Shown: piece by piece, positions 3,787-18,200 of the stretch | Layout: the number at the start of each line of letters is the position of its first letter | Position numbering within the stretch: the stretch's first letter is position 1 | DNA from: Escherichia coli phage vB_EcoS_Ace | Sequence record: MT833283.1 | Direction: 5' to 3' (one strand) | DNA: 64,000 bases | The notes under the pieces: generated by a model | Database searches by the model: none | What the model was told of the DNA's origin: nothing | What the model saw: only the letters and a program-made list of their open reading frames with translations | Position numbers and translations under genes: made by a program

Positions 3787-3860
3787 TGGTATTCTCACAC
3801 GGATTCGAACCGAGATTTCTGGAGTGAAGTTCCAGTGACCTAACCATTAGTCGATGAGAA
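3787..3860 (-). tRNA. tRNA, anticodon read as TTC (Glu)
   Basis: Acceptor GTTCTCA/TGAGAAT, anticodon stem CTGGA/TCCAG perfect with loop ACTTCAC, T-arm CTCGG-TTCGAAT-CCGTG, CCA encoded. Confidence 0.6.
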
Positions 3861-4377
3861 CATTATATTCTTTTGCTTTCTCTAATTTTAGAAAAGACTT
3901 TAATTCTTCTAAGTTAATTATATTAAACCATTCACCTTCTAGTGCAAAAGGTTTAAGAAACTTATGTATTTTTGATTCTACCGCACGTCTATCGGAGTAG
4001 AATTGATAGTGCTCCAGAGTAAAATCTCTGTAAGGACTATATGTTTGATATGACCTCAGTCTTTCATGGACATTTACTGTCATACCTATTTTGTAACAAT
4101 TAGGCCATGCTTTATTGCCAATAACATATACCATACCTTCATACACAGGTAATTTATGCGCTTGTTTATACTGAATAAGATTTAAAGCAGAAATTCTATC
4201 ATACTGCATTATTCTTTTAGTATTCTTCTTTTCAGTACAAGTACCTTTTATCTCATTATAGATTTCTCGATATTTAGCAAGTAAATCTACATCAATAACA
4301 AAAGGTATAGTAGGAGAGATAATATCTCTTTCCTCCATAGCGCTAATTACTATTTTTGGTATATCTGGTATTGCCAT
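3847..4377 (-). CDS. GIY-YIG-like (T5orf172/MUG113-type) domain protein, paralog of 59-700
   Basis: 176 aa; shared core GMVYVIGNKAWPNCYKIGMTVNVHERLRSYQTYSPYRD with the 59-700 ORF. Confidence 0.7.
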   Translation of the reverse strand: MAIPDIPKIVISAMEERDIISPTIPFVIDVDLLAKYREIYNEIKGTCTEKKNTKRIMQYDRISALNLIQYKQAHKLPVYEGMVYVIGNKAWPNCYKIGMTVNVHERLRSYQTYSPYRDFTLEHYQFYSDRRAVESKIHKFLKPFALEGEWFNIINLEELKSFLKLEKAKEYNVLID

Positions 4378-8598: not shown

Positions 8599-9543
8599 TT
8601 ACTTGTTACGCATATCCATGATCATTTGACCATCGTAGCCAGTACCAACAACAGTCTGCGGTACACCACCTTGGTATTTTTCAGCACGAAGCATTTCAAC
8701 TTCCAGCTGCTTCCAACGAATCATTTCAGGAGTAATGGTACGTTGCAGCGCGGCGTTAGCTTCAGCTTCTTTCTTAGCTGCGTACAGTTTAGCATCTGCG
8801 TCACGTTCGTTAGCTACTGCCATGTTTTCACGAGCAGAACGATCAGCTTCAGCTTGCTTAACTTTCTGCTGTGCTTCTTGTTCAACACGAGCCAATTCAG
8901 CTTTTGCAGCGTTAACTTGTTCTTCACGAACTTTAGTGTTCTGTACCTGTTCCATGATTACCGGTGGCAGAGTAATATCCTGAAGGAATACTTGCTTAAC
9001 CGTGTAACCATAAGGACGCGCGTACTCTTCTACCTCTTGCTGAATAGCAGTTTGCAGTTGAGCCTGAATCTTAGCGTCGAACAGATCTTGTGCTTTTGGT
9101 ACGGACTTACCAAACTCACGAATCGTAGACAGCATCTTCTCTTCAACGTACTTGTTCAGAGCTTGATCCTGAGTACCTGCGTTAACACGGTTCATAGGAG
9201 CTTTAGCACCATCAAACTGCAACATAACGGTAATGTCAACAGTAGACTTAAACTTATCCTGGCTAGGAACCTGAAGTTTATCCAGTTTCATGGAAATATC
9301 TTTCGTACTAAAAGTATCAAAAGAAGCAAATGGGTTAACAATATGGAAGCCTGGCAGTACAGGGTTCGGGCTAACTTTACCCAGGAAGGTCTGAGTCTTT
9401 ACAGTACCATCCTGAACAACTGTGTAGGAATTGAGAGCCAGAATAAGAGCACCAAGACCAACTACAGCACCAACACCCCAACGTTTAATAGTACGAATTA
9501 CTTTTTGCTCAGAAGTCAGTTCTTTAGTGTTTTTAGTAAACAT
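8599..9543 (-). CDS. SPFH/band-7 (stomatin/prohibitin/HflK-like) membrane protein
   Basis: 314 aa; N-terminal TM helix (WGVGAVVGLGALILAL), SPFH-like core, long charged coiled-coil C-terminus (EQVNAAKAELARVEQEAQQK...). Confidence 0.65.
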   Translation of the reverse strand: MFTKNTKELTSEQKVIRTIKRWGVGAVVGLGALILALNSYTVVQDGTVKTQTFLGKVSPNPVLPGFHIVNPFASFDTFSTKDISMKLDKLQVPSQDKFKSTVDITVMLQFDGAKAPMNRVNAGTQDQALNKYVEEKMLSTIREFGKSVPKAQDLFDAKIQAQLQTAIQQEVEEYARPYGYTVKQVFLQDITLPPVIMEQVQNTKVREEQVNAAKAELARVEQEAQQKVKQAEADRSARENMAVANERDADAKLYAAKKEAEANAALQRTITPEMIRWKQLEVEMLRAEKYQGGVPQTVVGTGYDGQMIMDMRNK

Positions 9544-9554
9544 ATATTTCCTTA

Positions 9555-9755
9555 TTATTTAGAAGAGTTAGCTACTACAGTTACTTTAGTTGCAGAAATA
9601 AACAGGCCAGCATCCACAGCAAATTCAGGAGCTTTGATATCTCCATTATGAAATATGACTATACCGGAGATTACCTCAAATGCTAGTGCTGTAACATCGG
9701 TGGTATTTACTTGTGAATGTTCACCTACTACTTTTACTATATATCGTGTTTTCAT
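9555..9755 (-). CDS. hypothetical protein
   Basis: 66 aa ORF immediately downstream of the SPFH gene. Confidence 0.45.
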   Translation of the reverse strand: MKTRYIVKVVGEHSQVNTTDVTALAFEVISGIVIFHNGDIKAPEFAVDAGLFISATKVTVVANSSK

Positions 9756-9781
9756 TTTATTTTCCTAACAGTTAATAAAAT

Positions 9782-9856
9782 TGGCCGAGGTGACAGGATT
9801 TGAACCTGCATAAAGGAATTTAGAAGACTCCTGCCTATCCCTTAGACTACACCCCG
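9782..9856 (-). tRNA. tRNA-Arg (TCT)
   Basis: Acceptor CGGGGTG/CACCTCG, anticodon stem GGAGT/ATTCC with loop CTTCTAA, T-arm GCAGG-TTCAAAT-CCTGT, CCA encoded. Confidence 0.75.
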
Positions 9857-9864
9857 AAAGTTAA

Positions 9865-10374
9865 TCATTTAATGACTTTATTCAATTTAGTTTGACTTTC
9901 AACAGCTTCTTTAGCAGATTTCTCAGCATTTTTAGCTGCACGTTGTGCTTTAGAGTCAATCAATAGCTTGTCATACTTGATATTAACGAACTCTTTAATA
10001 TCGTGGTAGAAACGTTGATGTGCCATGTATTCTTGTGCATCTGCGTCATAACAGCGCATATAGAAGTAATCACTAGGCTCTCCGCGAAGTGTACTCTCTA
10101 GAATCTGCGGGCGATAACGACGTAATGTATCTTTCGCCATTTTTACTTCATCAGTTTCTTCACCAAGCTGAACTAGGTGATAAAGACGAGTATTGTCGAT
10201 GTAATCCAAAGCTACGCTAAAGTATTCACCTTCTCGAAGATTATATCCTGTAATCTCACTCATTTTCTCGCGAGCTTGATCAAGTGTCAATCGTTCAGAG
10301 AAATGTGCTATATGCAGAATACGAGGGCAACACATTTCTTGAAGATCAAAGATACAAGTTGTTCCTAGATTCAT
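9865..10374 (-). CDS. hypothetical protein
   Basis: 169 aa ORF; RBS AAGGA upstream; lies at the 3' end of the ORF-free transcribed block. Confidence 0.55.
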   Translation of the reverse strand: MNLGTTCIFDLQEMCCPRILHIAHFSERLTLDQAREKMSEITGYNLREGEYFSVALDYIDNTRLYHLVQLGEETDEVKMAKDTLRRYRPQILESTLRGEPSDYFYMRCYDADAQEYMAHQRFYHDIKEFVNIKYDKLLIDSKAQRAAKNAEKSAKEAVESQTKLNKVIK

Positions 10375-11247
10375 ATTGATTCCTTTTGTTAGGTATTTTT
10401 AAGAACTCTCGAAAAAGCTCTTAAAGATACCCGGCGGTAGGTAGGGTCAGCCCCCTCAGATTAAGCTCTGCAGCCCTTCCGTCAGACAATATCCTCCAGT
10501 TTAAGTCAGGGTGACTTTGTGGTTATGTTCTCCGTATGTGAAGAACTCGGTTAGGCTTAGGTCATGACTCCCAGCCTACTGCTGCCACTCAACAGGAATT
10601 ATCGCGAATTACCTGTACTATTGGGCACCATTAGTGACATCTCTCATGCCAGCATTTCCCACTCTCATATTCACGCGGTCTGGTAGAATCACACCTCCGA
10701 TTTTCGATGCGAAGCTGGATGCCTAGTCTCTATGTTAAACGGGGCACACACTAGGCAGTGATCCCGAGTTCCGAGTTTGGTTGAGGCCGTCAGGTTTCCT
10801 CGTGGTTTAGCTGTTTCGATTCTAACCTAATACTGATCAGGCGGCGTACCTCCTGAACCGTCATAGTATGTACTCCAGCAGCGAATGCTTATCCGGTATA
10901 AGCCCGAGTTATCCGATTCTTTCCGACCGCAGGATTCGAACCTGCATCTTCCACCAGTTACGGTTTAATATTACCGTTTATACTAGGACGGCAGTGTTAT
11001 CACATAAGTCAGTTCGACACCCCACTAACATAAACTAGAGAAGAGTTTACGAGATTTCGGGACAGCTCCCGTGTTTTCCGCAGATTTTCAGTTCCCTATC
11101 AATAGCAATAAGCGTTAGCTCGTAGCCTCTCTCAGAGTACTTACTAGTCTCCAACTCACCGACTCTATTCAGTGGAATAGCTATCCTAGTAGGAATCACT
11201 AAACTCACTCAGCGTAATCGGCTCGCTGTTCTCTACTTTATGAATTT
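10375..11247 (-). ncRNA. candidate long structured non-coding RNA or very long leader (ORF-free, GC-elevated, promoter-driven)
   Basis: About 870 nt with no ORF of 60 aa or more in the track; visibly more GC-rich than flanking DNA; strong T5-type promoter at 11248-11276 reads into it; contains canonical T-arm GCAGG-TTCGAAT-CCTGC (plus 10928-10944) without a foldable tRNA body. Confidence 0.4.
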
Positions 11248-11276
11248 ATTATACAGAATTTTGAAGCGTTTAGCAA
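11248..11276 (-). promoter_or_regulatory. sigma70-type T5 early promoter (-35 TTGCTA, 17 nt, -10 TATAAT) firing into the ORF-free block
   Basis: rc of 11248-11276 gives TTGCTA-N17-TATAAT, then TAAATTCATAAAGTAGAGAACAG resembling the conserved leader but without an ATG. Confidence 0.65.
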
Positions 11277-11284
11277 ACCAATTT

Positions 11285-11728
11285 TTAATTAAATTCGCCA
11301 GCAACCTGAGCAGCAATGCCACCGTCGTAACGACCAGGAAACTCTTCCTTAATCGCTTTCATCAGCATACCCTTTGTAATCCCAGGATTCAGCTTAACTA
11401 ATTCTGCGAAGTATTTGCGAATCTCAGTAGGAGATAACTGAGGCGGCAGATACTGCTGTAGCCATTTGTTCAGTATATACTCATACTGAGCAGACTGCAA
11501 GCTATAATTATCGAGGTCTTGACCGTGAAGTTTAGCTTTCGTATGATTAATGCTTTTCAGTTGAGCTTTTAGATAAGATACAAACTGTTCAGAAGTTATG
11601 AAGTCTTTATCAATACGCTGAAGATCTCCGATTATGGTCTGGTAGCTTTTAGCTACTTCTTTATCAGAACCATCAACCTTAGATTCCTGCAAAACTCTAC
11701 GCAAAACAGATAGAATATTCTCTTCCAT
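11285..11728 (-). CDS. GatB/YqeY-like domain protein
   Basis: 147 aa; C-terminal region (GITKGMLMKAIKEEFPGRYDGGIAAQVAGEF) resembles the YqeY/GatB C-terminal domain; assignment by motif memory only. Confidence 0.5.
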   Translation of the reverse strand: MEENILSVLRRVLQESKVDGSDKEVAKSYQTIIGDLQRIDKDFITSEQFVSYLKAQLKSINHTKAKLHGQDLDNYSLQSAQYEYILNKWLQQYLPPQLSPTEIRKYFAELVKLNPGITKGMLMKAIKEEFPGRYDGGIAAQVAGEFN

Positions 11729-11898
11729 TATTTAATTTCCAGTGCTTGGTTAAAAGATTGTTCTGTCATAACTGCTGAGACTTTGGCGAAATCAAACTTC
11801 TTAGGGTTTGTAGTAATTTCAGCAACGTTAGTAGTTTTAACTGTTTTCGTAGTACGGATACCACGAGTATTAACACCAATAATTACAACTGATTTCAT
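11728..11898 (-). CDS. small hypothetical protein (56 aa), absent from the ORF track
   Basis: ATG at 11898 preceded by RBS GAGAGGAAG and a T5-type promoter (11920-11980); stop TAA overlaps the ATG of the GatB/YqeY-like gene (TAATG). Confidence 0.55.
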   Translation of the reverse strand: MKSVVIIGVNTRGIRTTKTVKTTNVAEITTNPKKFDFAKVSAVMTEQSFNQALEIK

Positions 11899-11966
11899 AT
11901 TTCGCTTCCTCTCATTAATTTATGAAAGTATTATACAGAAATTTAAGGCTTTAAGCAATCGAATTT

Positions 11967-12419
11967 TTAAGTTTTCTTAACCACAGGCTTGTAGAACGTA
12001 TGGCCTTGAATCTTCGTTGTTTTCTTAAACTTCTTTGTCCAGTACGGTTTATCTTTACCACTATGGAAGTATAACGCTCCATGTGTTGGATCTTGTGGTA
12101 AATCAACGTAGTATATCACTCTAGCTAAATTCTTAGCAACTTGCCAAGCCTCATCGGTTTTATCAACTTTTGGTCTCTTGGCCACCCAAGAGAACTGGTT
12201 AGACTGATATACTACTTTACAGTAAGAATCAGGAAAAGTACCAGAGTTAACACGATTTTTAGTAACCTGTGCAACTGCGATCATTCCTTTAGTGCCCTCA
12301 CCACGACTCTCAAAATAGATGTTTTTTGCAATACAGTCTATCTCTTTAGCATCATGTGTGGCATAAGCAGGTAAGCTACTTATAGTAGTGGCCAGCAGGA
12401 GTAATACTTTCAACATAGT
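11967..12419 (-). CDS. secreted SleB/CwlJ-like cell-wall hydrolase
   Basis: Start moved to internal ATG (MLKVLLLLATTISSLPAYA signal peptide), just downstream of the HNH gene stop; hydrolase core NIYFESRGEGTKGMIAVAQVTKNRV...QSNQFSW. Confidence 0.7.
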   Translation of the reverse strand, partial: TMLKVLLLLATTISSLPAYATHDAKEIDCIAKNIYFESRGEGTKGMIAVAQVTKNRVNSGTFPDSYCKVVYQSNQFSWVAKRPKVDKTDEAWQVAKNLARVIYYVDLPQDPTHGALYFHSGKDKPYWTKKFKKTTKIQGHTFYKPVVKKT

Positions 12420-12420
12420 A

Positions 12421-12945
12421 TCACTCCTTATACGGCTGGTATAGGGCAAATTCACCGAATAGGTCAAACCTTAAATCATTTGCTACATCTACCGCTTCTT
12501 TTAGACTAAGAAAGGTTCCGCCCTCTATAGGCTTTTTATCTTTCTTTACAATAACCCTCCACCCTTGAGGTGTTTTATACACATTTTTATAGCCAGAAGT
12601 ATTGGCCTTCCCAATATCTTTATTAGCATTATTTTGTGAATGAGTGGCGTCTCTGAGATTTTCTATTTTATCGCAGAAAGGATTAGTGTCATGCCTAGTC
12701 CTATCTTTATGATCAACTTGTACTGGTAAGTATCCTTTATGATATAAAAATACTAATCTATGGTGTCTGTATGATTTATTATCAATGGACACTACTATTG
12801 ATTTCCCATCTTTAGCCCCAGCAGGCTTATCCGCCCATTTGGCATTCCATGCAGGGGCTTTATTGGGATTAGCTTTCCAGTACAATCTACCTTCCTCACT
12901 ATTGTAGTGAAATAAGGATAATAGGTTTTCCTGGGTTATTTCCAT
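12421..12945 (-). CDS. HNH endonuclease with AP2-like DNA-binding domain
   Basis: 174 aa; HNH region HHRLVFLYHKGYLPVQVDHKDRTRHDTN...ENLRDATHSQN; AP2-like SGYKNVYKTPQGWRV. Confidence 0.7.
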   Translation of the reverse strand: MEITQENLLSLFHYNSEEGRLYWKANPNKAPAWNAKWADKPAGAKDGKSIVVSIDNKSYRHHRLVFLYHKGYLPVQVDHKDRTRHDTNPFCDKIENLRDATHSQNNANKDIGKANTSGYKNVYKTPQGWRVIVKKDKKPIEGGTFLSLKEAVDVANDLRFDLFGEFALYQPYKE

Positions 12946-12949
12946 TTAT

Positions 12950-13267
12950 TTACTCCTGCCAATCGTACTCAATACGATTGGGGTTTTCTTGATAACCAGC
13001 TGTTTTTAACTGTTGGCGCATATTTTCTGCAGCAACAGAATTGCTGGTGACTAAAACCACCTTTTTAGGGTACAAATCTTTATCTTCTAGGATACGACTT
13101 AACAAATGGTGGCCTTCTACTTTACTACCCATGTCATTATCTAAATAAAGATAATTACCCTGGAGTTGTAACTGATAGAGCATTTCGTACGCTACATCAG
13201 GGTTTCTGATGATGATATCCATTCCATTTAAGTCACGTACATCATCAAACAAAATATGTAAAGTCAT
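12950..13267 (-). CDS. hypothetical protein
   Basis: 105 aa ORF; minus-strand promoter TTGCAA-N17-TATAAT at about 13285-13320. Confidence 0.5.
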   Translation of the reverse strand: MTLHILFDDVRDLNGMDIIIRNPDVAYEMLYQLQLQGNYLYLDNDMGSKVEGHHLLSRILEDKDLYPKKVVLVTSNSVAAENMRQQLKTAGYQENPNRIEYDWQE

Positions 13268-13711
13268 AGGAGCCTCGTCTCATCAATTTAAAAATATATT
13301 ATACAGATAATTAAACTGTTTTGCAAATACATTTTTAGATTGAGAGAACTAGTAAACCGATAAACAGCCTAGAGGCGCCACAGGCCATATCTTATGAGCC
13401 ATGTACCTTTGATCTAGGGTTTGAATCATCAACGAATACTTTGCATCTTTTAGCTTTAGAAGGTTAGAAGTTTGAGTGCTTTTAACTTTTCAGCTTTCAT
13501 ACTTGAGCGTTGATCTTTGAAGTTGTGTTGGTACTACCAACGACCTTTTGTTTTTACGTGTCAGATTAAATGTCTGATGTAATAAACATAATCTCCAATA
13601 GATTATACTTTATAGTATGGTCAGCGGTCTTATTTAACCTCGTATTTCAACCGCTGCTGCGAGGTAAGATGCTTGGGCTTTCGTCTACCGATTTACTAGT
13701 CTTTTAAATTA

Positions 13712-14350
13712 TTACTCTACTTCGATAAAAGTAGAGGCGTTGGACTCAGACAGAACAAAGTCAACGTTAGTTGCAAAGTCCTGGTACTCTTCGTCGTGTT
13801 GCTTGATCAGCTTTTCCAGCTCCAGCGGATCGATCAGGAACGGAGTGTTCTTGAGTTCCAGCAGGTTAAGCTGCATCTTAACTTCATCCTCGGAAGTCTT
13901 CTTGTCGCGGGTAGCCATGGTATCCTGCAAACGCTCATACTTAGCATCAAACTGAGCTTTCTGAGTGTTAAACTTAACAGTAGCAGCATGGAACTGCTTA
14001 CGCATGTTAGCCAGCAACTGAGCTTTGAGTTCCATAGAACGCTTAGCTTCGATTGCTTCCGCAACAGTCATAGAGCGAGAACCGATCTCTACAACAGTTT
14101 CAGCATTGCTCTTGATCAGCGCAGCTTTCAGACTATCACGCTGGGACATCATATCCAACAGAGACTGGAAATCAGTCTTAATACGAGTAGACAGAGCATC
14201 TACTTCGATTGCAGCGCCAACTACAACTTGGTTCTTATCCTTACCTTCACCAACAGCAATCAAAAGCTGTTGTTCAGTAGCTTTACGGATTTTAGCTTCT
14301 AGAGACTTGATAGTTGCCAGAGCACGAGTTTTAGAGATACGAGTAGTCAT
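13712..14350 (-). CDS. hypothetical coiled-coil protein
   Basis: 212 aa, predicted coiled-coil throughout. Confidence 0.55.
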   Translation of the reverse strand: MTTRISKTRALATIKSLEAKIRKATEQQLLIAVGEGKDKNQVVVGAAIEVDALSTRIKTDFQSLLDMMSQRDSLKAALIKSNAETVVEIGSRSMTVAEAIEAKRSMELKAQLLANMRKQFHAATVKFNTQKAQFDAKYERLQDTMATRDKKTSEDEVKMQLNLLELKNTPFLIDPLELEKLIKQHDEEYQDFATNVDFVLSESNASTFIEVE

Positions 14351-14403
14351 TATTTCTTCCTTATATGAAGTTTGAGATTTGAATTTGTTTTAAAAATGGT
14401 CTA

Positions 14404-14586
14404 TTACAGACCGATTGCCAGCAGAGTGCGCAGAACAGTATCAGAACTGTTATCAATATTCGGGTTGGCGCGATTCAGCACATTAAAGATTTTCTGGATG
14501 CCGGACTGACGCTCAGCCATACGACGCAGACCCAGGTTACGTTTTGCTACTTTACCATTTTTACGGACGTTTTTAGATACTGGCAT
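14404..14586 (-). CDS. small basic protein
   Basis: 60 aa Lys/Arg-rich ORF directly downstream of a T5-type promoter/leader (14600-14656). Confidence 0.5.
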   Translation of the reverse strand: MPVSKNVRKNGKVAKRNLGLRRMAERQSGIQKIFNVLNRANPNIDNSSDTVLRTLLAIGL

Positions 14587-14656
14587 AATTATTTTCCTTT
14601 TGTTGTTCTCTCAAATTTATGAATATATTATACAGAATTTTGGAGCTGAAAGCAAA

Positions 14657-15358
14657 TCAAATTTTGATTTTTTTGATCATGACGGCTACACAATAACTTT
14701 CAACTAAAGCATCAAATGCTGGATCATGCTTCACAGGATAGATTCCATAACGAATGGTGTCCATCTTTTCCATTTTAGCTTTTGCCCAGCTAGCACCTTC
14801 GGCTTCTAGATCTTTATAGCTATAACCAGCTTGCATCCACTGATTACGGAAAGATCGAACGTTACCTAAGTTCCAGAATTTCCACGGAACTATTTCTTCA
14901 TGGGTTCCGGCATGGAACGTATTTGCAGAGTAGATTGTCATATCAAACTCTGGGCCATTGCCGTAATACAGAGCATTATCTCCTAGAGACAATTCCATAA
15001 TGTTCTGAGCCATAGAGAAGGCAGCATAATTAGAGCCTACGTCATTAGTGCAGTGATGCTTACCATCACGGAAGGCAATTAGTTTAGGATTACGACCATT
15101 TAGAGCCTCCATAATATGGAGCGCAGATGGACTGTTTTTAGCTTGATCCATCCAGAATGCAATAGTAGAGGCAGTTACCTTAGCACCCGCATTAAGCTGA
15201 TCTTGAACGTCTAGAGTAACGAATACCAGATCAGGATCTTTATCAATTCCGTGCATCGCTACAAAAGCGAAAGAAGGCATTGCAATATGAGTAGTACCGC
15301 AATTTCCTGGAGTACCTAGAGATTCAATGTCCAGCATACCAAAGGGCTTGAATTTCAT
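14657..15358 (-). CDS. DEDDh-type 3'-5' exonuclease (DnaQ/oligoribonuclease-like)
   Basis: 233 aa; Exo I-like GMLDIESLG and Exo III-like YPVKHDPAFDA motifs. Confidence 0.6.
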   Translation of the reverse strand: MKFKPFGMLDIESLGTPGNCGTTHIAMPSFAFVAMHGIDKDPDLVFVTLDVQDQLNAGAKVTASTIAFWMDQAKNSPSALHIMEALNGRNPKLIAFRDGKHHCTNDVGSNYAAFSMAQNIMELSLGDNALYYGNGPEFDMTIYSANTFHAGTHEEIVPWKFWNLGNVRSFRNQWMQAGYSYKDLEAEGASWAKAKMEKMDTIRYGIYPVKHDPAFDALVESYCVAVMIKKIKI

Positions 15359-17621: not shown

Positions 17622-18200
17622 TTATTCTCCAATTACTAAAACATCATGTTGAGAAGATACACCACACATATAATCTGCACAATGCGTAAAAGCCAGATCA
17701 ATGATTTCAAATATATCATCTACATCTAAATCTGTGGCTCGACAATACGCAATAGCTAAACCTGTACGAATACTGGAAAGTACATCTTCTCCTCCACAGC
17801 CTACACCGGCATATTCAACTTCTAGAATAGAAGCATTAGATTGGAAAATAAAGATTCTTCCTTTGTAGAGCATAATAAATTGTCCCAGATTAGGTTCAGC
17901 ATATTTTTCATTTTTCTTTTCGCCAAAATCTTTCTGGTTAAACATATCACGTAATTTAGGTACTATTTCCGTGTATAAATATTTATCATCAGAAATATCT
18001 GCTAAACGTGGTGGTACAGTAAAGCTATGCTCTAGTAATTGTCCCATGTAGAAGGAACTAGTGTATCCGAAGTACAAATCATCAGAGATTTTGAATACTT
18101 TCGGATTTTTAACCAGCAGTTTCGTATAGCCATTAGAACCCATACGATCACCAGCTAAGTATACTTTATCTTTATATTTAAATGCTACTATGGCTGTCAT
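17622..18200 (-). CDS. Ntn-hydrolase, HslV/proteasome-beta-like
   Basis: 192 aa; Thr immediately after iMet (MTAIVAFKYKDKVYLAGD) like the HslV N-terminal nucleophile; Gly-rich AGVGCGGEDV segment. Confidence 0.55.
   Translation of the reverse strand: MTAIVAFKYKDKVYLAGDRMGSNGYTKLLVKNPKVFKISDDLYFGYTSSFYMGQLLEHSFTVPPRLADISDDKYLYTEIVPKLRDMFNQKDFGEKKNEKYAEPNLGQFIMLYKGRIFIFQSNASILEVEYAGVGCGGEDVLSSIRTGLAIAYCRATDLDVDDIFEIIDLAFTHCADYMCGVSSQHDVLVIGE

What the first reader, a model, noticed from the sequence alone, without database searches (positions are those of the whole stretch)
11967..12945. HNH-AP2 endonuclease wedged against a secreted SleB-like cell-wall hydrolase
The HNH-AP2 ORF (12421-12945) ends inside the longest reading frame of the downstream hydrolase. 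The hydrolase's functional start (signal peptide MLKVLLLLATT) begins immediately after the HNH stop, as if the endonuclease gene inserted just upstream of it. The hydrolase has a Sec signal peptide and a SleB/CwlJ-type core, which is unusual for a phage lysis enzyme and could act from the periplasm.
Basis: partly seen in the sequence, partly recalled or inferred. Interest (0 to 1): 0.4.

Follow-up and report, generated by a model that had tools for sequence, protein, structure and literature searches.

The report
Homing endonuclease beside secreted phage hydrolase
A selfish, mobile endonuclease gene has been spliced exactly between two neighbouring genes of a T5-like phage, carrying foreign flanking sequence with it, including a replacement export signal for the cell-wall hydrolase downstream; this is a clean example of a well-known phenomenon.

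Summary
The window comes from a T5-like phage (Epseptimavirus).

**Genes on the minus strand**
- 12421-12945 encodes an intact HNH_3 endonuclease with a C-terminal domain of AP2 fold.
- 11967-12416 encodes the T5.083 orthologue: a 19-residue Sec-type signal peptide followed by a SleB-type (Hydrolase_2) catalytic domain.
- The longer TTG-started frame that overlaps the HNH gene is an artefact.

**Evidence that the HNH gene is an insertion**
- It is absent from about 97% of relatives. Only 13 of 443 phage records carry it, representing 9 phages.
- In phages without it, T5 included, the upstream cREC gene is 5 nt from the hydrolase start.
- The 529-bp insert sits exactly at that start codon.
- In the phage collection it is always linked to deeply divergent flanks: the cREC core, and the first 114 nt of the hydrolase including the signal peptide.
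- This cassette is 99-100% identical in backbones that are only 75-90% identical next to it.

These are the marks of a free-standing homing endonuclease that spreads by co-conversion of its flanks.

**The hydrolase**
It is conserved across T5-like and many other phages, nearly always with an N-terminal signal. It lies about 22 kb from the canonical holin/endolysin/spanin cassette, so it is an accessory enzyme whose role has not been tested, not an unusual endolysin.

**Verdict:** an ordinary new member of known kinds; low interest.

The parts
13298..13327 (-). Sigma-70-like promoter (TTTGCA-N18-TATAAT) of the cREC / HNH / hydrolase transcription unit
   Evidence: Promoter scan, 10 of 12 matches. 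The -10 and its surroundings are conserved with T5, where a promoter is annotated at the equivalent place upstream of T5.084. No minus-strand terminator-like site lies between 11700 and 13800.
12950..13267 (-). cREC_REC-domain gene (T5.084 orthologue), a deeply divergent allele that travels with the HNH gene; the divergent core is 12995-13238
   Evidence: Pfam PF20274, E 1.9e-12. It is 54% aa identical to the common allele, and 116 of 244 nt differ in the core. This allele is 100% aa identical in exactly the 13 HNH-carrying records; 429 of the other 430 are below 60% aa and one falls in the 60-80% band.
12946..12994 (-). 49-nt conserved island between the divergent cREC core and the HNH ATG. 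It holds the cREC stop, the GGAG Shine-Dalgarno (12953-12956) now used by the HNH gene, and a 9-bp inverted repeat (12959-12981). It is the inferred upstream half of the homing site.
   Evidence: Only 3 mismatches against the HNH-less allele. RNA hairpin with z about -2.3 in the window, chee130 and T5, unique in the window. The role as recognition site is inference only.
12421..12945 (-). Free-standing HNH-AP2 homing endonuclease gene (174 aa). HNH_3 domain about 12628-12768; AP2-fold domain about 12448-12597.
   Evidence: Pfam HNH_3 and phrog_99. D78, H79, N96 and N105 are invariant in the family alignment A2. AP2 is supported by 14 of 19 homologues and by fold. It is present in 13 of 50,697 phage records at >=95% aa, with the next best at 48.6%.
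12417..12945 (-). The 529-bp insertion relative to HNH-less relatives (HNH ORF plus a 4-nt spacer). Its 3' end supplies a new Shine-Dalgarno (AAGGAG, 12424-12429) for the hydrolase.
   Evidence: Alignments with chee130_1, 8sent65 and T5, where the cREC stop is 5 nt from the hydrolase ATG. The record spans of HNH-less relatives are 529 bp shorter.
12417..12467 (-). Spurious N-terminal extension of the 'longest ORF' of the hydrolase (TTG 12467); not a real coding start
   Evidence: It is encoded by the HNH 3' end in another frame, so it is absent from HNH-less relatives. AAGG lies only 1 nt from the TTG. The extension would bury the signal peptide.
12360..12416 (-). Signal peptide of the hydrolase (19 codons, MLKVLLLLATTISSLPAYA), a replaced allele linked to the HNH gene
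   Evidence: Rule-based check: K3, hydrophobic core with 9-residue Kyte-Doolittle mean (KD9) 2.7, A-Y-A at -3/-1. 12 of 19 codons are non-synonymous against the common allele MKAALLLIAALTYSFNSHA, which obeys the same rules. This allele occurs only in the 13 HNH-carrying records and, 82% nt identical over 12300-12416, in the second HNH lineage L005.
12303..12416 (-). Downstream divergent (co-converted) tract: the first 114 nt of the hydrolase gene
   Evidence: 48 of 114 nt differ from chee130, then only 3 of 336. In the mature part, 11 differing codons are synonymous and 4 non-synonymous, which indicates old divergence under purifying selection.
11967..12359 (-). Mature SleB-type (Hydrolase_2) peptidoglycan hydrolase, T5.083 orthologue. 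Catalytic-groove residues are E36, R55, Y116 and H139; the conserved Cys pair is C28/C66.
   Evidence: Pfam PF07486, E 4.3e-26. SleB 4F55/4FET by sequence and fold. E36, R55 and H139 are invariant or near-invariant, and C28+C66 co-occur in 109 of 112 homologues. The spacing matches the B. subtilis SleB groove E203/R222/Y278/H301 (PMC13556211).

Best explanation
The window is a T5-like (Epseptimavirus) phage genome. In it, a promoter at about 13300 drives a small early transcription unit. In most relatives that unit reads cREC-domain gene (T5.084), then 5 nt, then secreted SleB-type hydrolase (T5.083).

A free-standing homing endonuclease gene of the HNH-AP2 type has been inserted exactly at the hydrolase start codon.
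- It has no promoter of its own.
- It uses the Shine-Dalgarno that formerly served the hydrolase.
- It carries a new Shine-Dalgarno in its last codons, so the hydrolase is still translated (shown by sequence).

Inferred mechanism:
1. In a mixed infection the enzyme nicks or cuts the HNH-less allele at or near the cREC-stop/hydrolase-start junction.
2. Repair copies the HNH-carrying genome.
3. Because the donor flanks are too divergent for crossovers (about 48% on one side, about 42% on the other), the whole roughly 1-kb cassette moves as one block. The cassette is the divergent cREC core, the HNH gene and the divergent signal-peptide region (12303-13238).
4. Insertion and the divergent downstream half-site make the carrier immune to its own enzyme.

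The hydrolase is not the phage's lysis endolysin. It is a conserved accessory enzyme that is most likely exported by Sec, has its signal cleaved after residue 19, is oxidised to a C28-C66 disulfide, and acts on peptidoglycan from the periplasm as a lytic transglycosylase-like enzyme, independently of the holin (inferred).
For: Identity of the genome: the best match is 98.3% to Escherichia phage SUT_E1620, 443 Demerecviridae-type records match, and there is a tRNA cluster.

Domains.

Presence and absence:
- The HNH gene is in 13 of 443 related records, or 9 distinct phages.
- T5, chee130_1 and 8sent65 have the 5-nt junction with no HNH gene.

Linkage: the divergent cREC allele and the divergent signal-peptide allele occur in exactly the same 13 records.

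Sharp tract ends: 48 of 114 nt differ, then 3 of 336; the cREC core differs at 116 of 244 nt.

Incongruent history:
- The cassette is 99-100% identical to CitS1, YZU-L1 and falkor.
- The adjacent genes are only 86-90% identical in CitS1 and 75% in YZU-L1.
- The HNH-less chee130 is 97-99% identical to the window in those same adjacent genes.
- Upstream tract ends differ between the window and CitS1.

Second lineage: an HNH gene 83% aa identical sits at the same site with the same type of signal-peptide allele but the common cREC allele. This shows site specificity and independent resolution within the conserved island.

Expression signals.

Hydrolase:
- A signal-like N-terminus is present in 101 of 112 homologues, and both alleles keep the signal-peptide architecture despite 12 of 19 codon replacements.
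- The Cys pair is conserved.
- The canonical lysis cassette lies elsewhere.

Literature:
- HNH-AP2 homing endonucleases and nuclease genes at recombination boundaries (PMC10448857).
- Co-conversion by the free-standing HNH MobE (PMC2790892).
- SleB-like phage hydrolase with a signal peptide, toxic when expressed in E. coli (PMC7344957).
- T5-like phages carry a second, SleB-type 'endolysin' far from the holin (PMC11180984, PMC3326045).
Against: - No cleavage activity, target site or super-Mendelian inheritance has been shown for this enzyme, so homing is inferred from population-genomic signatures only.
- T5-like genomes are mosaics, so ordinary recombination could move any 1-kb module.
- The divergent cREC core is separated from the HNH gene by a 49-nt conserved island and is absent from the second HNH lineage. 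Its linkage could therefore reflect one ancestral event plus short distance rather than repeated co-conversion.
- The nine HNH-carrying phages could still share some common descent for this segment.
- The window's own sequence does not reach any Pfam AP2 threshold, and the fold-search E-values are weak (0.09-0.65).
- The signal peptide was judged by rules, not by SignalP. Some depositors call homologues 'SAR endolysin'.
- The enzymatic specificity and the biological role of the hydrolase are unknown.
Confidence: 0.75

Rival explanations
1. The roughly 1-kb block arrived by ordinary homologous (mosaic) recombination between T5-like phages. The HNH gene is a passive or inactive passenger, so no endonuclease-driven homing is involved.
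For: T5-like backbones are clearly mosaic: neighbouring segments vary from 60% to 99% identity between the same pairs of phages. Tract ends coincide with conserved sequence, where any recombination would resolve. No activity data exist.
Against: The catalytic HNH residues and the full-length ORF are intact and 99-100% conserved in 9 phages. The block is centred on the HNH gene. A second HNH lineage, 83% aa identical, occupies exactly the same inter-codon site with a different upstream flank. Nuclease genes at exchange boundaries are a documented pattern (PMC10448857).
Confidence: 0.12
2. The HNH gene is ancestral at this locus and has been deleted in most T5-like phages.
For: Homing endonuclease genes are known to be lost by decay and deletion. 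The HNH-less junction is very tight (5 nt), as a precise deletion could leave it.
Against: Deletion would not make the flanks 42-48% divergent. The identical 5-nt junction and the common flank alleles are shared by two genera, Tequintavirus T5 and Epseptimavirus. The HNH-carrying cassette is nearly identical in backbones that differ by 10-25% nearby, so it is younger than those backbones. Only 3% of records carry it.
Confidence: 0.03
3. The HNH protein is a domesticated phage function rather than a selfish element. Possibilities are a nicking enzyme that creates T5-type single-strand interruptions, a packaging-associated HNH, or a weapon against co-infecting phages.
For: From prior knowledge, T5 DNA carries site-specific nicks, and T5 HNH enzymes (F-TflI/II/IV) and I-HmuI are nickases. 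The T5 record lists several heg genes, such as hegF F-TflVI. Cutting a competitor's genome is intrinsically an exclusion function.
Against: The gene is dispensable: 97% of close relatives lack it. It is not near the terminase. Its distribution and linked flanks are what is expected for a mobile element. Interference with competitors is compatible with homing rather than an alternative to it.
Confidence: 0.05
4. The hydrolase is the phage's true (or co-equal) endolysin, of the signal-anchor-release (SAR) or secreted type. It would be responsible for timing lysis, rather than being an accessory enzyme.
For: Databases label it 'endolysin' (phrog_938, the RefSeq T5.083 annotation). A homologue in phage DE15 is annotated 'SAR endolysin'. 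The Cronobacter phage CR3 homologue is said to be implicated in lysis, and CB7_83 is toxic in E. coli (PMC7344957).
Against: T5 and the HNH-carrying relative falkor have a complete holin / M15 endolysin / spanin cassette about 22 kb away. From prior knowledge, EndoT5 is the biochemically characterised T5 endolysin. The N-terminus has a short 12-13-residue hydrophobic core followed by AYA/SHA/SQA, which is typical of cleaved Sec signals rather than of the longer Gly/Ala-rich SAR helices. The gene sits in the early region behind a sigma-70-like promoter.
Confidence: 0.15

Closest known systems
Free-standing HNH homing endonucleases of phages (T4 MobE; SPO1 I-HmuI-type HNH_3 enzymes; T5 heg / F-Tfl genes)
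   Same: It is a small HNH_3 nuclease gene lying between two conserved genes, with no intron or intein. It is sporadic among close relatives, accompanied by co-converted flanking polymorphisms, and expressed from the host operon (PMC2790892, PMC2988022).
   Different: The insertion site is new (the T5.084/T5.083 junction). It has no close sequence relatives: the nearest other phage HNH is 48.6% aa identical. The flanks are unusually divergent and include a whole replaced signal peptide. Activity, cut site, and nicking versus double-strand cutting are all unknown.
HNH-AP2 homing endonucleases (Magnani, Sjolander and Hake 2004; 'IPA-HNH' genes of ICP1, PMC10448857)
   Same: The architecture is an N-terminal HNH plus a C-terminal AP2 DNA-binding domain. 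Family members hit Pfam AP2, and the model superposes on AtERF1, TEM1 and WRI1 AP2 domains.
   Different: The HNH part is a canonical HNH_3, unlike the ICP1 IPA-HNH genes, which miss that profile. The AP2 part of this particular copy is too diverged for Pfam AP2. It also has a roughly 55-residue N-terminal beta-rich extension of unknown role.
SleB catalytic domain (Bacillus cereus 4F55, B. anthracis 4FET), Pfam Hydrolase_2
   Same: The fold is the same (TM 0.76-0.81, 32% identity), and it shares the Y-x-E-S-R-G-E catalytic glutamate motif and the conserved Arg, Tyr and His of the groove.
   Different: It has no N-terminal peptidoglycan-binding domain and no YpeB partner. It has a Sec signal peptide instead, plus a Cys pair (C28/C66) that SleB lacks. 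Its host is Gram-negative and has no muramic-delta-lactam cortex, so its substrate specificity must differ.
T5.083 and its phage orthologues (AKFV33 ORF81; Pectobacterium phage CB7_83; Cronobacter phage CR3_087)
   Same: It is the direct orthologue: 86% aa identical to T5.083, with the same length, position and neighbours. The signal peptide was noted for CB7_83, and the early-region location for AKFV33 (PMC7344957, PMC3326045).
   Different: The first 38 codons are a different allele, brought in with the HNH gene. None of these proteins has a demonstrated function.
Secreted and SAR endolysins (Oenococcus fOg44 Lys44, P1 Lyz, phage 21 R; from prior knowledge and PMC7143992)
   Same: It is a muralytic enzyme that reaches the periplasm through Sec without needing holin holes.
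   Different: It is not encoded in a lysis cassette. A separate holin-dependent endolysin exists. The N-terminus looks like a cleavable signal peptide rather than a SAR anchor. The catalytic family also differs: Hydrolase_2 rather than a lysozyme or glycosidase of the T4 or P1 type.

Membership tests
HNH (HNH_3, I-HmuI-like) homing endonuclease | beta-beta-alpha-metal HNH motif with the conserved His and Asn residues | tested here: met
   Pfam PF13392, 35.1 bits against a cut-off of 24.8. D78, H79, N96 and N105 are invariant in a 19-sequence family alignment. The ORF is intact.
HNH (HNH_3, I-HmuI-like) homing endonuclease | Sporadic presence or absence at one fixed site among closely related genomes | tested here: met
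   13 of 443 related phage records carry it, and all others have the 5-nt empty junction where examined. A second lineage, 83% aa identical, sits at the same site.
HNH (HNH_3, I-HmuI-like) homing endonuclease | Co-conversion of flanking sequence, and a history incongruent with the backbone | tested here: met
   The divergent flanks are linked to the HNH gene in 13 of 13 records. The cassette is 99-100% identical where adjacent genes are 75-90% identical. Tract ends are sharp.
HNH (HNH_3, I-HmuI-like) homing endonuclease | Site-specific cleavage or nicking of the endonuclease-less allele, and super-Mendelian inheritance in crosses | not testable with these tools
   This needs purified protein on the T5 or chee130 junction DNA, and mixed-infection crosses.
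HNH-AP2 homing endonucleases | C-terminal AP2 DNA-binding domain (three-stranded sheet packed on a helix) | tested here: met
   The sequence itself gives no Pfam AP2 hit even at E<=10. However, 14 of 19 aligned homologues hit PF00847 (best E 7.5e-8). The model has strands 122-125, 128-135 and 138-145 plus helix 148-166. The top 8 PDB fold hits are all AP2 domains (probability 0.69-1.00, seven of them 0.97 or higher; 1GCC TM 0.73, rmsd 1.6 A) but with weak E-values of 0.09-0.65.
Pfam Hydrolase_2 / SleB-CwlJ catalytic domain | Profile match above the curated threshold, and the SleB fold | tested here: met
   PF07486, 91.9 bits against a cut-off of 27. 4F55 and 4FET match by sequence (E 4.5e-9) and are the only significant fold matches (E 1e-5, TM 0.76-0.81).
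Pfam Hydrolase_2 / SleB-CwlJ catalytic domain | Catalytic glutamate and groove residues (B. subtilis SleB E203, R222, Y278, H301) | tested here: met
   E36 is aligned to the SleB Y-G-E-S-R-G-E glutamate. E36, R55 and H139 are invariant in 43 homologues and near-invariant in 112; Y116 is Y, H or F. The spacings 19 and 23 match those of SleB (PMC13556211).
SleB proper (spore cortex-lytic enzyme) | N-terminal peptidoglycan-binding domain, YpeB partner, muramic-delta-lactam-dependent activity | tested here: not met
   The protein is only a signal peptide plus the catalytic domain (149 aa), with no second Pfam domain. The host is an enterobacterium with no spore cortex. It is a Hydrolase_2 family member, not a SleB orthologue.
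Sec (signal peptidase I) secretory protein | Positively charged n-region, 7-15-residue hydrophobic h-region, small residues at -3/-1, no lipobox Cys | tested here: met
   M-L-K / VLLLLATTISSL / P-A-Y-A | T. The alternative allele, MKAALLLIAALTYSFNSHA|T, and T5 (...SSQA|S) follow the same rules. 101 of 112 homologues have a hydrophobic N-terminus, with a 10-residue Kyte-Doolittle mean of at least 1.8. This was a rule-based check only; SignalP was not available.
SAR (signal-anchor-release) endolysin | Uncleaved, weakly hydrophobic, Gly/Ala/Ser-rich N-terminal transmembrane helix of about 18 or more residues | tested here: inconclusive
   The hydrophobic core is only 12-13 residues, Leu-rich, and followed by an AXA-like site, which argues against SAR. 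No predictor or experiment was available, and one homologue is annotated 'SAR endolysin' by its depositor.
Canonical holin-dependent endolysin of a lysis cassette | Encoded next to holin and spanin genes; cytoplasmic until the holin triggers | tested here: not met
   In T5, lys T5.040, holin T5.041 and spanins T5.044/045 are at 19.9-23.2 kb, whereas T5.083 is at 42.3 kb. In falkor the holin and endolysin are at 101.4-102.5 kb, whereas the hydrolase is at 78.7 kb. Neither the T5 endolysin nor the T5 holin has a match in the window. The protein also has an export signal.

The most novel reading that the evidence does not exclude
In this reading the endonuclease is more than a selfish insert. It acts as a vehicle that drives allele replacement of its two functional neighbours: a cREC receiver-domain protein only 54% identical to the common form, and a new export signal on a periplasmic peptidoglycan hydrolase.

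The cassette would then spread because the swapped alleles change phage fitness, for example by escaping a host defence that senses or blocks the common cREC or hydrolase form, with the endonuclease as the delivery mechanism.

A related open reading is that the Sec-exported SleB-type enzyme, made from an early promoter, has a role other than lysis, such as wall remodelling or exclusion of superinfecting phage.
Probability: 0.1. Interest if true: 0.5.

Novelty: new member of a known kind. Interest (0 to 1): 0.17.

Why it matters
**For annotation**
- The hydrolase starts at ATG 12416, not TTG 12467.
- The HNH gene, left as 'hypothetical protein' or unannotated in several deposited genomes, is an HNH-AP2 homing endonuclease.
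- 'Endolysin' is probably the wrong label for T5.083-type proteins.

**For phage biology**
- The locus is a tidy natural example of a free-standing homing endonuclease dragging about 0.4 kb of foreign coding sequence, including a complete signal peptide, into otherwise 97-99% identical genomes.
- It marks the T5.084/T5.083 junction as a homing site that could be exploited for marker insertion in T5-like therapeutic phages.
- It also points to an untested question: what a Sec-exported, early-expressed SleB-type hydrolase does in phages that already have a full lysis cassette.

None of this would surprise a specialist.

Tried and rejected
- **Pfam AP2 on the window's own C-terminal 65 residues, at E<=10:** no hit. 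The AP2 claim therefore rests on homologues and fold.
- **Sequence search of the HNH protein against PDB chains:** nothing at E<=1.
- **BLASTP for paralogues of this HNH among all window ORFs of 80 aa or more:** none at E<0.01. It is not part of a local gene family, although a T5orf172-type endonuclease lies at 3847-4377.
- **Search for the donor lineage of the divergent cREC allele in the phage collection:** the best match outside the 13 carriers is 58.5% aa (70.7% nt), so the donor is unsampled.
- **Search for HNH-less phages carrying the MLKV signal-peptide allele:** none.
- **Rfam scan of 9500-15000 for an RNA in the conserved intergenic region:** only tRNA hits.
- **TTG 12467 as the real start:** considered and rejected.
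- **Virion-associated lysin:** considered and rejected, because a Sec signal and a 15-kDa single-domain protein from an early operon do not fit cytoplasmic virion assembly.
- **SleB structure paper (PMC3415495):** not held, so the catalytic residues were taken from PMC13556211 instead.
- **Literature searches:** these found only annotation-level mentions of SleB-type phage hydrolases and no functional study.
Full report
**What the window is.** The 3.5 kb around the finding is 98.3% identical to Escherichia phage SUT_E1620. It matches 443 phage records, almost all of them Salmonella and Escherichia T5-like phages (Demerecviridae, Epseptimavirus and Tequintavirus). The first 10 kb of the window carry 14 tRNA genes, as in T5. 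All genes around the finding are on the minus strand.

**Checking the observation.**
- ORF 12421-12945 (174 aa, ATG start) and ORF 11967-12467 (TTG start) exist as described.
- The first hits Pfam HNH_3 above its curated threshold, and phrog_99 'HNH endonuclease' at E 4.5e-49.
- The second, read from ATG 12416, hits Pfam Hydrolase_2 at E 4.3e-26 and phrog_938.
- The HNH stop (TGA 12423-12421) is followed by 4 nt and then ATG 12416. AAGGAG (12424-12429) lies 7 nt upstream of that ATG.
- The TTG-started extension is encoded by the 3' end of the HNH gene in another frame. It cannot exist in relatives that lack the HNH gene, and all of those annotate the equivalent ATG. The overlap is real but is an artefact of taking the longest frame.

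**The AP2 label.** The window's own sequence gives no Pfam AP2 match, even for the isolated C-terminal 65 residues at E<=10, and no sequence match to any PDB chain. Other evidence supports the label:
- A database search found 22 homologues, several of which have precomputed AP2 plus HNH_3 architectures.
- In a 19-sequence full-length alignment, 14 members hit PF00847 (best E 7.5e-8). The window's C-terminus aligns to their N-T-S-G-Y-K-G-V...W...G-E-F-A pattern.
- An AlphaFold2 model (pLDDT 93.4) shows three strands and a helix at residues 122-166.
- The top eight PDB fold matches are all plant AP2 domains (TEM1, WRINKLED1, AtERF1; TM 0.73 and rmsd 1.6 A for 1GCC), although the E-values are weak (0.09-0.65) for so small a domain.

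I accept the AP2 assignment at family and fold level. The HNH residues D78, H79, N96 and N105 are invariant in the family.

**Is the HNH gene an insertion?** Yes.
- In chee130_1, in 8sent65 and in T5 itself (T5.084/T5.083), the upstream cREC_REC-domain gene ends 5 nt before the hydrolase ATG.
- Alignment shows a 529-bp insert whose ATG takes the place of the hydrolase ATG behind the same GGAG-N7 context.
- A tblastn search of the HNH protein finds it at >=95% identity in only 13 of 50,697 phage records, and the next best match is 48.6%.
- The 13 records are nine phages: S113, S132, SE3, SE7, falkor, PMBT31, SUT_E1620, CitS1 and YZU-L1. Four of them are present as both GenBank and RefSeq copies.
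- By contrast, 443 records hold the neighbouring cREC gene.
- In 5.8 billion clustered proteins there are only two close clusters, at 99% and 83% identity.

**Flanking signatures.**
- Against the HNH-less chee130_1 the window is 97-99% identical, except immediately around the insert.
- Downstream, 48 of the first 114 nt of the hydrolase gene differ, and then only 3 of the remaining 336.
- Upstream, 116 of 244 nt of the cREC core (12995-13238) differ.
- A 49-nt island next to the HNH start (12946-12994) is conserved.
- In the mature part of the hydrolase tract, most differing codons are synonymous (11 against 4). The flank is therefore old, purified divergence imported from an unsampled lineage, not local mutation.
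- Both divergent flanks occur in exactly the same 13 records as the HNH gene. For the cREC protein, 429 of the other 430 records are below 60% aa identity and one is in the 60-80% band. No other record matches the signal-peptide region.

**The cassette is younger than its backgrounds.**
- It is 99-100% identical to CitS1, YZU-L1 and falkor.
- CitS1 is only 86-90% identical in the genes just beyond it, and YZU-L1 only 75% on the other side.
- In those same genes the HNH-less chee130_1 is 97-99% identical to the window.
- The upstream end of the shared tract differs between the window and CitS1.
- A metagenomic T5-like contig (L005) carries an HNH gene 83% aa identical at the very same position. 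It has the same type of signal-peptide allele but the common cREC allele. The gene is therefore site-specific, and exchange can resolve in the conserved island.

Together these are the classic population-genomic marks of a free-standing homing endonuclease with flank co-conversion, as described for T4 MobE and for nuclease genes at exchange boundaries (PMC2790892, PMC10448857). Cleavage itself is not shown. I infer that the target is the empty junction, formed by the conserved island plus the common signal-peptide codons, which the insert splits in carriers.

**Expression.** A sigma-70-like promoter (TTTGCA-N18-TATAAT, 13327-13298) is conserved with the promoter annotated upstream of T5.084. 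No minus-strand terminator-like site lies between it and the end of the hydrolase gene. The HNH gene has therefore joined an existing operon: it uses the former hydrolase ribosome-binding site and supplies a new one.

**The hydrolase.**
- It is the T5.083 orthologue (86% aa).
- It matches the SleB catalytic domain by sequence (4F55, E 4.5e-9), with the Y-x-E-S-R-G-E motif aligned.
- It also matches by fold, and SleB domains are the only significant matches.
- E36, R55 and H139 are invariant or nearly so, and Y116 is mostly Y. These correspond in spacing to the SleB groove residues E203/R222/Y278/H301.
- It lacks the peptidoglycan-binding domain of SleB, so it is a Hydrolase_2 member rather than a SleB orthologue.

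**The signal peptide.**
- The N-terminus MLKVLLLLATTISSLPAYA|THD obeys the n/h/c-region and -3/-1 rules.
- So does the unrelated-looking common allele MKAALLLIAALTYSFNSHA|TYD. The architecture is kept through 12 non-synonymous changes in 19 codons, which argues for function.
- 101 of 112 database homologues have a hydrophobic N-terminus, and the exceptions look truncated.
- A Cys pair that SleB lacks is co-conserved in 109 of 112 homologues, which fits a periplasmic disulfide.
- SignalP was not available, and a SAR-type anchor is not formally excluded.

**Is it an unusual lysis enzyme?** No.
- Homologues occur in 1363 phage records from many phage groups.
- The signal peptide and toxicity on expression were reported for the homologue CB7_83 (PMC7344957).
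- The SleB-type 'second endolysin far from the holin' of T5-like phages has been noted before (PMC3326045, PMC11180984).
- T5 and the HNH-carrying relative falkor have a full holin / M15 endolysin / spanin cassette about 22 kb away. Neither the T5 endolysin nor the T5 holin has a match in the window.

The best reading is a Sec-exported accessory muralytic enzyme whose role is untested.

**Verdict.** The finding is accurate and the insertion hypothesis is confirmed, but both components belong to well-known kinds and are already present in public genomes, partly annotated. Interest is low. The only mildly noteworthy aspects are the clean cassette structure, in which a whole signal peptide and a neighbouring gene allele hitch-hike with the endonuclease, and the unanswered function of T5.083-type secreted hydrolases.

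Noticed in passing
window 13268-13711 (minus strand, upstream of the cREC gene): This 444-nt intergenic region is more conserved than the flanking genes. Mean column identity is 97% across the window, chee130, T5 and CitS1, and T5 is 94.9% identical here against 86-90% in neighbouring genes. It has no Rfam match and no minus-strand ORF of 30 aa or more. Relatives falkor and 8sent65 carry a second, unrelated homing-endonuclease insertion of about 537 bp inside it, so this 1.5-kb locus has two independent homing sites.
   Followed up: partly
window 12959-12981 (minus strand): A 9-bp inverted repeat, CCAATCGTA-TTGAG-TACGATTGG, lies in the last codons of the cREC gene, 2 nt before the Shine-Dalgarno of the next ORF. 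It is conserved at nucleotide level in both deeply divergent cREC alleles and in T5. The predicted RNA hairpin has z about -2.3, and the repeat is unique in the window. It could be part of the homing site, or an mRNA processing or coupling element.
   Followed up: partly
window 12950-13267: The cREC_REC-domain protein (T5.084 family, PF20274) exists as two allelic classes only about 54% aa identical, with almost no intermediates among 443 phage records: 13 records at 100%, one at 60-80% and 429 below 60%. Its function in T5-like phages is unknown.
   Followed up: partly
window 10921-10992 (minus strand): A tRNA-like element scores 29.7 bits with Rfam tRNA (gathering threshold 29) but was not called by ARAGORN. 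The CitS1 record annotates a tRNA-Sec(tca) at the equivalent place.
   Followed up: no
window 3847-4377 (minus strand): Another probable homing endonuclease, of the T5orf172/MUG113 (GIY-YIG-related) type, is embedded in the tRNA cluster.
   Followed up: no
window 13712-14350 (minus strand): This 212-aa ORF matches phrog_1491 'tail fiber protein' (E 2.4e-81) and is annotated that way in many records. Yet it sits in the early region next to exonuclease and replication-type genes and has no Pfam hit, so the label looks doubtful.
   Followed up: no
window 11967-12416, residues C28 and C66 of the hydrolase: The two cysteines are co-conserved in 109 of 112 homologues from phages and Gram-negative-type metagenomic sequences, but are absent from Bacillus SleB. 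This suggests a disulfide specific to the periplasmic clade.
   Followed up: partly
window 17622-18200 and 8599-9543 (minus strand): One ORF is proteasome-subunit-like (PF00227, E 1.1e-9) and the other is SPFH/Band-7 (PF01145, E 2.9e-19). Both lie in the early region and are conserved T5-like genes of unclear role.
   Followed up: no
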